Shown piece after piece: positions 47,541 to 47,649 of a stretch of DNA of 62,914 nucleotides (position 1 is the stretch's first letter; each line of letters opens with the position of its first letter). The notes beneath the pieces were generated by a model. The model saw only the letters and a list, made by a program, of their open reading frames with translations, searched no databases and was not told the DNA's origin. The stretch is from a virus (taxonomy: Duplodnaviria; Heunggongvirae; Uroviricota; Caudoviricetes), in IMG/VR virus record IMGVR_UViG_3300021403_000003, positions 113,952-176,865 of that record, one strand, 5' to 3'. Made by a program: the position numbers and the translations under genes.

Positions 47541-47649
47541 GGGAGAATAAGGTGGGTTCGATTCCCATCACGTAAGTCGTTCATAACCTGATGGTCAATC
47601 TTCTGCAGGAGGTTGGGAACGTTGTGTAGTCAAGTGGCTTGGCACTCCC
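47541..47649 (+). ncRNA. circularly permuted tRNA-like RNA (YrlA-like) #1
   Basis: Order is GGGAG, T arm (GTGGG-TTCGATT-CCCAT), extended closed acceptor-like stem, D-arm-like TAGTCAAGTGGCTTGGCA, CTCCC. Confidence 0.65.

What the first reader, a model, noticed from the sequence alone, without database searches (positions are those of the whole stretch)
47541..47649. Second permuted tRNA-like RNA with an elongated acceptor-position stem
Seen: GGGAG...CTCCC as the anticodon-stem equivalent, then a canonical T arm (GTGGG-TTCGATT-CCCAT), an imperfect ~55-nt closed stem (CAC..GTTC..AACCT / AGGTT..GAAC..GTG), and a D-arm-like TAGTCAAGTGGCTTGGCA. It has the same topology as 47762-47841 but no obvious sequence identity, and only one tRNA-Leu separates them. 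Inference: a family of permuted mimics that arose twice or diverged long ago. The extra stem could be a protein-binding platform.
Basis: partly seen in the sequence, partly recalled or inferred. Interest (0 to 1): 0.75.

Follow-up and report, generated by a model that had tools for sequence, protein, structure and literature searches.

The report
Degenerate inside-out tRNA look-alike in phage
Between two tRNA genes of a soil T4-like phage lies a tRNA-derived RNA element with its parts in swapped order and no anticodon; RNAs of this shape recur in other phages, but this copy is the most irregular one found and may be decaying.

Summary
At 47541-47649 the order is: 5-bp closing stem GGGAG/CTCCC, 6-nt variable region, canonical T arm, about 58 nt of acceptor-position hairpin, UA, a D arm with GG, and A26. 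It fills the whole gap between tRNA-Cys and tRNA-Leu(UAG).

This is the topology of the tRNA-like domain of bacterial YrlA Y RNAs. The complete phage genome has no Ro60, no DUF7873, no Ro-binding motif and no room for a basal stem.

Other T4-like phage contigs carry 15 elements of the same topology, often in pairs and often with a long acceptor hairpin. Six of them show strong covariation in all four helices.

A covariance model built only from those six ranks the neighbour 47772-47838 first in the window (40.8 bits) and this element second (27.2 bits).

This element is the outlier of the set:
- Acceptor stem 4/7 pairs, against 6-7/7 in the others.
- Long stem no more stable than shuffles.
- No NCCA, no 15:48 pair.
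- Not recognised as a tRNA when un-permuted.

Its variable region plus T arm is 21/23 identical to the phage's own tRNA-Asn. No close relative of the phage was found, so covariation in the element itself is untested.

This scan has noted such mimics on other DNA.

The parts
47458..47535 (+). tRNA-Cys(GCA) with encoded CCA (47533-47535). It is the upstream neighbour, and its 3' processing would define the element's 5' end.
   Evidence: ARAGORN; Rfam tRNA 42.6 bits
47536..47540 (+). 5-nt linker GATTA. It leaves no room for a basal or Ro-binding stem.
   Evidence: sequence
47541..47545 (+). Closing stem, 5' strand GGGAG (tRNA positions 39-43 equivalent)
47546..47551 (+). 6-nt variable region AATAAG. 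It ends in G, so there is no canonical 15:48 pair with G15.
   Evidence: The stretch 47545-47567 (last closing-stem base, this region and most of the T arm) is 21/23 identical to tRNA-Asn 45114-45136.
47552..47568 (+). Canonical T arm GTGGG-TTCGATT-CCCAT
47569..47626 (+). Acceptor-position hairpin. In the tRNA register only 4 of 7 acceptor pairs form (47569-72 with 47623-26), followed by CGTTC/GAACG and an ill-defined distal part.
   Evidence: Energy is not better than shuffles (z -0.44).
47627..47628 (+). U8 A9 linker
47629..47643 (+). D arm GTCA-AGTGGCT-TGGC with the G18 G19 equivalents. The 12-mer GTAGTCAAGTGG is identical to the D-arm region of tRNAs with a GTA (Tyr) anticodon in metagenome contigs.
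47644..47649 (+). A26 equivalent plus closing stem 3' strand CTCCC (positions 27-31 equivalent)
47650..47658 (+). 9-nt linker GCTTATTTT up to the RNase P site of tRNA-Leu
47659..47735 (+). tRNA-Leu(UAG), which separates the two permuted elements
47770..47839 (+). Neighbouring well-formed permuted tRNA-like element: acceptor 7/7 closed by the tetraloop GATT, G15:C48 present
   Evidence: Rfam YrlA positions 28-81, 26.1 bits; MFE z -3.77; model R1 40.8 bits; called as a tRNA when un-permuted

Best explanation
47541-47649 is a tRNA-derived, circularly permuted, anticodon-less tRNA-like RNA. Its 5' and 3' ends meet in the anticodon-stem equivalent. The T arm comes first, a hairpin replaces the open acceptor end, and the D arm comes last.

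Inferred life cycle:
- It is transcribed as part of the tRNA polycistron.
- It is released as a roughly 120-nt RNA (47536-47658) by 3' maturation of tRNA-Cys and RNase P cleavage at the 5' end of tRNA-Leu.
- It folds so that the D and T loops form a tRNA elbow.

By architecture it belongs with the YrlA-type tRNA-like domain and with a phage family of such mimics. It is a stand-alone version without Ro60, DUF7873 or a basal handle.

It is also the most degenerate member seen. The most likely status is a relaxed or decaying paralogue of the well-formed neighbour. Any activity it keeps would be that of an elbow mimic that engages factors recognising the tRNA elbow, such as RNase P or the T-loop and D-loop modification enzymes. 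It would not be a decoding or chargeable tRNA.

Shown: the anatomy, the existence and covariation of the family elsewhere, and the absence of known protein partners. Inferred: transcription, processing, folding and function.
For: Anatomy:
- The order of parts and the canonical T arm are in the sequence.
- The D arm is tRNA-like. Its 12-mer is identical to the D-arm region of tRNAs with a GTA (Tyr) anticodon in metagenome contigs.

Family:
- 15 other elements of the same topology parse in T4-like phage contigs, with acceptor stems of 6-7/7.
- The alignment of six 'b' elements has 96.3% of cells paired and 17 of 29 pairs with compensatory changes. No shuffle of 500 reached this, and sliding the partners drops pairing to 42-55%.
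- Model R1, built without any window sequence, scores the neighbour at 40.8 bits (E 5.5e-7) and this element at 27.2 bits (E 5e-4), end to end in the tRNA register. The best other hit in the window scores 21.3 bits.
- 12 of 421 T arms reach this element's level of closure, and 10 of them are permuted elements.
- The neighbour matches the tRNA-like core of Rfam YrlA.

Context:
- No promoter-like or terminator-like site lies between 47141 and 47971.
- Spacers of 5 and 9 nt join it to the flanking tRNAs.
- Chen et al. 2014 (PMC4201824) show that YrlA domains of this topology are modified like tRNA and that some have longer acceptor stems. The M. smegmatis YrlA is cut by RNase P and gains CCA.
Against: - No homologue of this particular element was found, so none of its helices has covariation support.
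- The fold is not significantly stable: z -1.2 for the whole element and -0.44 for the long stem.
- The acceptor helix has 4/7 pairs in the tRNA register, and a competing register is 2.7 kcal/mol better.
- It has G15 opposite G48. By my reading of the table, 14 of the 15 other elements keep a canonical 15:48 pair.
- There is no NCC(A) after the acceptor strand, which 10 of the 16 elements have.
- When un-permuted it is not called a tRNA by ARAGORN, while the neighbour is.
- In 1.1 Mb, tandem-tRNA junctions reach 24-32 bits with R1, so 27.2 bits alone does not separate it from noise.
- There is no expression data.
Confidence: 0.6

Rival explanations
1. Non-functional relic. It would be a by-product of rearrangement in a fast-evolving tRNA array: a tRNA 3' half (tRNA-Asn-like) and a tRNA 5' half (its D-arm 12-mer matches that of tRNAs with a Tyr anticodon) left side by side. 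It is transcribed only because it sits in the operon and is drifting.
For: - The 3' half is 21/23 identical to the array's tRNA-Asn, while the 5' half resembles no array tRNA.
- The acceptor stem is poor, the 15:48 pair is lost, the long stem is unstable and the un-permutation test fails.
- The array holds several other aberrant tRNA-like pieces.
Against: - The closing stem has 5/5 Watson-Crick pairs in exactly the tRNA register, and 4 contiguous acceptor pairs flank the T stem and U8. This combination is rare among ordinary T arms (2 chance passes among about 411).
- An intact element of the same topology lies 120 nt away, and paired elements are the rule in other phages.
Confidence: 0.28
2. 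A true Y RNA (YrlA) that tethers a Ro60/Rsr ring protein, or the partner RNA of DUF7873.
For: - The tRNA-like domain has the same topology, and the neighbour hits Rfam YrlA at 26 bits.
- In four other phage records the paired elements lie next to a DUF7873 gene. It is directly upstream in the three where both were mapped.
Against: - The genome (100% complete by CheckV) has no TROVE domain and no DUF7873. The DUF7873 search worked on four positive controls.
- There is no GNCGAA motif, and only 5 and 9 nt separate the element from the flanking tRNAs, so no basal stem fits.
- Rfam gives no YrlA hit on this element even at E up to 10.
Confidence: 0.05
3. A genuine permuted tRNA gene, as in Cyanidioschyzon merolae. 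Its transcript would be circularised or religated and then opened at the acceptor end to give a decoding tRNA.
For: The 3' half lies upstream of the 5' half, and the two anticodon-stem strands are complementary. ARAGORN calls no tRNA-Tyr and no tRNA-His in the array.
Against: - There are no anticodon-loop nucleotides. Joining the ends that tRNA processing would leave gives a 14-nt loop without U33.
- When un-permuted it is not recognised as a tRNA, and the acceptor stem has 4/7 pairs.
- No T4 Rnl1-type ligase or CCA-adding enzyme was found in the phage. The Rnl1 search had no positive control.
Confidence: 0.02
4. A structured spacer whose only role is to guide processing of the flanking tRNAs, for instance by presenting a site for a processing nuclease or a folding insulator.
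For: It fills an inter-tRNA gap exactly.
Against: A processing hairpin does not need a canonical T loop, a D arm with GG, U8 and a closing stem in the tRNA register. Most spacers in the array are 5-10 nt with no structure.
Confidence: 0.05

Closest known systems
YrlA (Y RNA-like A), Rfam RF02553; Chen et al. 2014, RNA 20:1715 (PMC4201824)
   Same: - The order is T arm, hairpin-closed acceptor stem, D arm, with the RNA ends leaving through the anticodon-stem equivalent.
- There is no anticodon.
- Some YrlA RNAs have longer acceptor stems.
- YrlA also occurs in phages (mycobacteriophages).
- The neighbouring element matches the YrlA core.
   Different: - No Ro60/Rsr gene.
- No GNCGAAN0-1G motif and no basal stem.
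- It is embedded between tRNAs rather than within 4 kb of rsr.
- No Rfam hit on this element.
- Its acceptor helix is irregular.
Paired tRNA-mimic RNAs next to DUF7873 in T4-like phages. I found no description in Rfam or in the papers searched. They were seen here in L013, L020, L059, L088, L078 and L089, and were noted earlier in this scan (e1-2704762).
   Same: - Same permuted cloverleaf, and two elements per locus.
- Long acceptor hairpins are common.
- The 'b' D arm (TA-GTC-CAGTGGAAA-GAC-A) is nearly the same as this element's (TA-GTC-AAGTGGCTT-GGC-A).
- Model R1, built from them, finds this element.
   Different: - Those elements have 7/7 acceptor stems, a canonical 15:48 pair, frequent NCC(A) paired to a leader GG, and outer flanking stems. 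DUF7873 was tested in four of these records and found in all four.
- This element has none of these features, and the genome lacks DUF7873.
Phage T4 small stable RNAs rnaC (species 1) and rnaD (species 2)
   Same: They are two tandem stable RNAs annotated in the tRNA gene cluster of a T4-type phage, and rnaC carries a canonical T arm. From my own knowledge, their function is unknown.
   Different: rnaC has the normal tRNA order, with the T arm at the 3' end and the 5' and 3' ends pairing. rnaD has no canonical T loop. Neither is permuted.
Circularly permuted tRNA genes of Cyanidioschyzon merolae and other algae (Soma et al. 2007; cited from my own knowledge)
   Same: The 3' half is encoded upstream of the 5' half, and the acceptor strands are joined by an intervening sequence.
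   Different: Those genes keep a full anticodon loop, which is restored through a bulge-helix-bulge splice, and they mature into decoding tRNAs. Here there are no loop nucleotides and no sign of such machinery.

Membership tests
YrlA (RF02553) | Topology: T arm, then closed acceptor-position stem-loop, then D arm, with the ends in the anticodon-stem equivalent | tested here: met
YrlA (RF02553) | Score at or above the Rfam gathering threshold (69 bits) | tested here: not met
   No YrlA hit on 47541-47649 even at E up to 10. The own-genome search lists only the neighbour at 26.1 bits and weaker hits on other array stretches.
YrlA (RF02553) | Encoded within about 4 kb of a Ro60/Rsr (TROVE) gene on the same strand | tested here: not met
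   No TROVE match in the 176,865-bp genome, which CheckV rates 100% complete. The control genomes rang.
YrlA (RF02553) | GNCGAAN0-1G Ro-binding motif near the 5' end, on a basal stem | tested here: not met
   No CGAA anywhere in 47536-47658. Only 5 and 9 nt lie between the element and the flanking tRNAs.
YrlA (RF02553) | tRNA-type modifications, and recognition by RNase P or the CCA-adding enzyme | not testable with these tools
   This needs RNA from infected cells or in vitro assays.
DUF7873-associated paired tRNA mimics (uncatalogued) | A DUF7873 gene next to the RNA locus | tested here: not met
   No PF25283 match in the own genome. The same search found it in 4 of 4 records that carry a/b pairs.
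DUF7873-associated paired tRNA mimics (uncatalogued) | Match to a covariance model of the 'b' elements | tested here: inconclusive
   27.2 bits, E 5e-4 in the window, and the second-best hit there. Tandem-tRNA junctions reach up to 31.8 bits in 1.1 Mb.
DUF7873-associated paired tRNA mimics (uncatalogued) | A 6-7 bp acceptor stem flush with the T stem, and a canonical 15:48 pair | tested here: not met
   4/7 pairs and G15/G48. The others have 6-7/7 acceptor pairs, and 14 of the 15 keep a canonical 15:48 pair by my reading of the same table.
Permuted tRNA genes (C. merolae type) | The 3' half lies upstream of the 5' half | tested here: met
Permuted tRNA genes (C. merolae type) | Anticodon loop present in the flanks, and the un-permuted sequence is a valid tRNA | tested here: not met
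   The flanks give a 14-nt junction without U33. ARAGORN finds no tRNA in five un-permuted constructs but calls the neighbour as a tRNA.

The most novel reading that the evidence does not exclude
The two window elements and their relatives could be a class of phage RNAs that are deliberately built as pre-tRNA look-alikes. The acceptor hairpin would be a leader/trailer duplex, often with an encoded NCCA. RNase P and 3' trimming would open it, leaving a nicked, anticodon-less tRNA with a real CCA end. The Leu-like 'a' type (A73 and A15:U48 in 6 of 6) could even be aminoacylated. Such RNAs would act outside decoding, for example as decoys or substrates for enzymes, toxins or defence nucleases that act on the tRNA acceptor end. 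On this reading the long, loose hairpin of 47541-47649 is a variant of that processing module and not decay.
Probability: 0.07. Interest if true: 0.8.

Novelty: new variant of a known kind. Interest (0 to 1): 0.4.

Why it matters
Bacterial Y RNAs of the YrlA type are the only described RNAs with this inside-out tRNA shape, and they are defined by their partnership with Ro60.

This element and its neighbour sit in a phage that has neither Ro60 nor DUF7873. The tRNA-shaped module therefore circulates as a free-standing unit inside viral tRNA operons.

If such units are functional, phages carry a class of non-decoding tRNA surrogates. Their targets could be the tRNA-processing or modification machinery, or host factors that act on tRNA, and these targets are unknown.

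This copy adds one specific point. The module can tolerate, or is losing, a regular acceptor helix. That makes it a natural test of which parts are needed.

On its own the element is a modest finding. It is a degenerate second copy, and its fold has no comparative support.

Tried and rejected
Searches for relatives of this element or its phage, all negative:
- blastn of 47250-48000 against GenBank phages.
- An exact 22-mer from the T arm and acceptor strand in IMG/VR.
- The 141-aa ORF 750 nt downstream. IMG/VR gave no relative. In 5.8 billion proteins it found only itself, on one ENA contig whose DNA could not be fetched.
- DNA ligase: one relative at 45% identity, with no tRNAs.
- DNA polymerase: the best relative is 48% identical, on an 8-kb contig.
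- A gapped T-loop/D-arm pattern in metagenome contigs returned only ordinary tandem tRNAs; the second tRNA of each pair carries a GTA (Tyr) anticodon.

Methods that failed or were dropped:
- My first descriptor scan was too permissive and was discarded.
- My first shuffle test had a faulty hairpin criterion, so that the real sequence failed it. I replaced it.
- MAFFT could not align short-hairpin and long-hairpin members together. The model was therefore built from the six 'b' elements only.

Ideas rejected:
- Phage T4 rnaC and rnaD are not permuted.
- The bacterial Schlafen defence paper offered no link, because those nucleases cut the anticodon arm.
- The release-factor evolution paper was irrelevant.
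- Literature searches for a described Ro60-less permuted tRNA mimic in phages found nothing.

Full report
**Setting.** The window is the last 62.9 kb of a 176,865-bp IMG/VR virus record that CheckV rates 100% complete. All genes lie on one strand. The phage has a family B DNA polymerase, a DnaB-type helicase and a ribonucleotide reductase. Earlier notes on this genome call it a soil T4-like phage.

Between 44.6 and 52.5 kb, ARAGORN finds 31 tRNA genes, with one more at 58.3 kb. Rfam confirms most of them. The array is flanked by MazG and HNH genes upstream and by an RF-1-domain (ArfB-like) protein and an ATP-dependent DNA ligase downstream.

**The observation.**
- GGGAG (47541-45) and CTCCC (47645-49).
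- A 6-nt variable region.
- The T arm GTGGG-TTCGATT-CCCAT (47552-68).
- About 58 nt that can fold back on itself.
- U8 A9 (47627-28).
- The D arm GTCA-AGTGGCT-TGGC (47629-43) and A26.

The element fills the gap between tRNA-Cys (ends 47535, CCA encoded) and tRNA-Leu(UAG) (starts 47659). Only 5 and 9 nt are left as linkers. No tRNA or other Rfam family is called on it, even at E up to 10. The MFE structure shows the closing stem, the T arm and a long imperfect hairpin.

**How strong is it?** The evidence is mixed.

The T arm is one of five perfect T arms in the window that lie outside called tRNAs.

Against an empirical background, 12 of 421 distinct T arms in all DNA fetched reach this element's level of closure. 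That level is a 5/5 closing stem in the tRNA register, U8, a D arm with GG, and at least 4 contiguous acceptor pairs. Ten of those 12 are permuted elements, this one included.

The thermodynamics are unimpressive:
- The whole element has z -1.2.
- The long stem has z -0.44.
- The acceptor-position helix has competing registers. The tRNA register gives 4 of 7 pairs and is 2.7 kcal/mol worse than the MFE register, which swallows U8.
- A looser test (closing stem plus any D-arm-like hairpin within 95 nt) passes in 8% of shuffles.

**What kind of thing it is.** The neighbour at 47777-47832 matches positions 28-81 of Rfam YrlA at 26.1 bits, below the threshold of 69. Those positions are the T arm, the closed acceptor stem-loop and the D arm.

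Chen et al. 2014 (PMC4201824) describe exactly this topology for the tRNA-like domain of bacterial and mycobacteriophage Y RNAs. They note that some have longer acceptor stems, and that M. smegmatis YrlA is cut by RNase P and receives CCA. They also warn that tandem tRNAs give false positives.

YrlA is defined by Ro60. This genome has no TROVE domain. The element has no GNCGAA motif and no room for a basal stem.

**A family in other phages.** Loci fetched through the RF-1-domain protein, through a D-arm string and through whole-record searches with model R1 hold 15 further elements with the same order of parts. They usually come in pairs, an upstream 'a' and a downstream 'b':
- L013: 18529-18621 and 18704-18802.
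- L020: 18900-18992 and 19069-19173.
- L059: 4838-4931 and 5008-5100.
- L088: 14093-14184 and 14267-14360.
- L078, minus strand: 1499-1577 and 1330-1426.
- L089, minus strand: 5315-5385 and 5159-5229, followed by tRNA-Pro.
- Singles or other pairs in L113 and L112.

Their acceptor stems have 6-7 of 7 pairs, and the hairpin interior ranges from 4 to 42 nt. An elongated acceptor-position stem is therefore a recurrent but not constant feature.

In 10 of the 16 elements the acceptor 3' strand is followed by NCC, and in four of them by NCCA. In the L013-type group the CC pairs with a GG just upstream of the acceptor 5' strand. This looks like a pre-tRNA leader/trailer duplex.

The 'a' type has a tRNA-Leu-like D arm, A73 and an A15:U48 pair in all six cases. 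These are my readings of the table.

On the alignment of six 'b' elements, 96.3% of cells pair and 17 of 29 pairs show changes on both sides. All four helices take part. No shuffle of 500 reaches the observed values, and sliding the partners by 1-3 columns drops pairing to 42-55%. The family structure is therefore real.

**Does this element belong?** Model R1 was built from those six sequences only. With filters off, it ranks the neighbour first in the window (40.8 bits, E 5.5e-7) and this element second (27.2 bits, E 5e-4). The alignment runs end to end in the tRNA register. The best other hit scores 21.3 bits.

In 1.1 Mb of tRNA-rich phage DNA, however, tandem-tRNA junctions reach 24-32 bits. 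The score alone is therefore not decisive. What sets this element apart is that it overlaps no tRNA and that its two outer strands pair perfectly.

It is the outlier of the set in several ways:
- Acceptor stem 4/7 pairs.
- G15 opposite G48, while 14 of the 15 others keep a canonical 15:48 pair.
- No NCC after the acceptor strand.
- With a synthetic anticodon loop, the un-permuted neighbour is called a tRNA by ARAGORN, but this element is not.

Its variable region and T arm are 21/23 identical to those of the array's own tRNA-Asn, including the unusual 6-nt variable region. Its D-arm 12-mer equals that of tRNAs with a GTA (Tyr) anticodon in metagenome contigs.

It is thus tRNA-derived. It is possibly assembled or converted locally, and it is either relaxed or decaying.

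**Protein partners.** In L013 the gene directly upstream of the a/b pair is DUF7873.

I checked it. DUF7873 is present in all four a/b-carrying records tested, and it lies directly upstream of the RNAs in the three where both were mapped. It is absent from the window's complete genome. No CCA-adding enzyme family was found either. The T4 Rnl1-type ligase search was also negative but had no positive control.

The window elements therefore have no recognisable dedicated partner.

**Mechanism.** No promoter-like or terminator-like site lies between 47141 and 47971. From this, the most likely course is co-transcription with the tRNAs. The RNA would then be released by tRNA 3' maturation and by RNase P at tRNA-Leu, and would fold into a closed cloverleaf with a tRNA elbow.

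It cannot decode, because it has no anticodon loop. Unless the hairpin is opened, it cannot be charged. I put 0.6 on 'a real permuted tRNA-like RNA of the YrlA-type class, stand-alone and degenerate', and 0.28 on 'a pure relic'. A Ro60 or DUF7873 partner RNA, a true permuted tRNA gene and a mere processing spacer are each unlikely.

**Comparison and novelty.** It works like the tRNA-like domain of YrlA, but it fails three of the four testable membership criteria. It resembles the DUF7873-associated phage pairs but lacks their gene and their regular stems. Phage T4 rnaC and rnaD share the genomic niche but not the topology.

I found no paper describing Ro60-less permuted tRNA mimics in phage tRNA arrays. 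This scan has noted such mimics many times on other DNA.

I class it as a new variant of a known kind. Interest is moderate to low for this particular copy. Its fold lacks comparative support, and the better-formed neighbour already carries the main point.

Noticed in passing
L013:17732-18802; also L020, L059, L088, L078 and L089: Six loci from T4-like phage contigs carry two permuted tRNA-like elements ('a' and 'b') in one roughly 300-nt non-coding stretch. A DUF7873 gene was found in all four records tested (those of L013, L059, L078 and L089) and lies directly upstream of the RNAs where mapped. In L013 and L020 an outer stem that covaries (GTGGGA/TCCCAC against GTGTGATA/TATCACAC) encloses element 'a' across GU-rich internal loops.
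   Followed up: partly
L013, L020, L059, L088, L078 and L089, 'a' elements (coordinates in the full report): All six 'a' elements have a tRNA-Leu-like D arm (TG-GCG-AAACTGGTAAA-CGC), A at the discriminator position and an A15:U48 pair. From my own knowledge, these are identity features of bacterial tRNA-Leu that do not involve the anticodon. The shared D arm is partly an effect of how the loci were retrieved.
   Followed up: no
16 permuted elements listed: In 10 of the 16, the acceptor 3' strand is followed by NCC, and in four of them by NCCA. In the L013-type group this CC pairs with a GG just 5' of the acceptor 5' strand, like a pre-tRNA leader/trailer duplex closed by a loop.
   Followed up: partly
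window:49416-49531: A tRNA-Phe(GAA)-like gene has a good acceptor stem (CCCTCTG/CGGAGGG) but about 40 extra nt inside the D-arm region. Rfam matches only 49467-49522 (model positions 10-63), and ARAGORN misses it.
   Followed up: no
window:46330-46395 and 50798-50814: Two more perfect T arms lie outside any called tRNA. The first sits in an odd tRNA-like body, and the second is isolated in a long structured spacer.
   Followed up: no
window:44600-58400: ARAGORN calls no tRNA-Tyr and no tRNA-His among the 32 tRNAs. Two calls are unusually long: Val(GAC), 96 nt, at 44688-44783 and Ile(UAU), 94 nt, at 46536-46629.
   Followed up: no
L050:8006-8129 and 16650-16800: Another phage array has three T arms in a row within 125 nt. 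It also has tandem units that look like tRNAs without an anticodon arm (acceptor strand, D arm, short linker, T arm).
   Followed up: no
L112 (G010:C1, near 4025-4095, and about 285 nt downstream): Two permuted tRNA-like elements lie about 285 nt apart in a record that is 66% complete and has no DUF7873 match. This is another possible partner-less pair.
   Followed up: no
L099:2415-2492: A permuted T arm, hairpin and D arm element with a GGGAG/CTTCC closing stem lies in a short metagenome contig that also carries ordinary tandem tRNAs. It may be a bacterial YrlA-like RNA.
   Followed up: no
window:52751-53140: The 129-aa RF-1-domain (ArfB-like) protein next to the array has relatives in 49 IMG/VR loci, and about half of those hold tRNA genes within 10 kb.
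   Followed up: partly
window:47591-47629: A 12-codon ATG-to-TAG frame lies inside the long hairpin, with no Shine-Dalgarno sequence upstream. It is probably chance.
   Followed up: no
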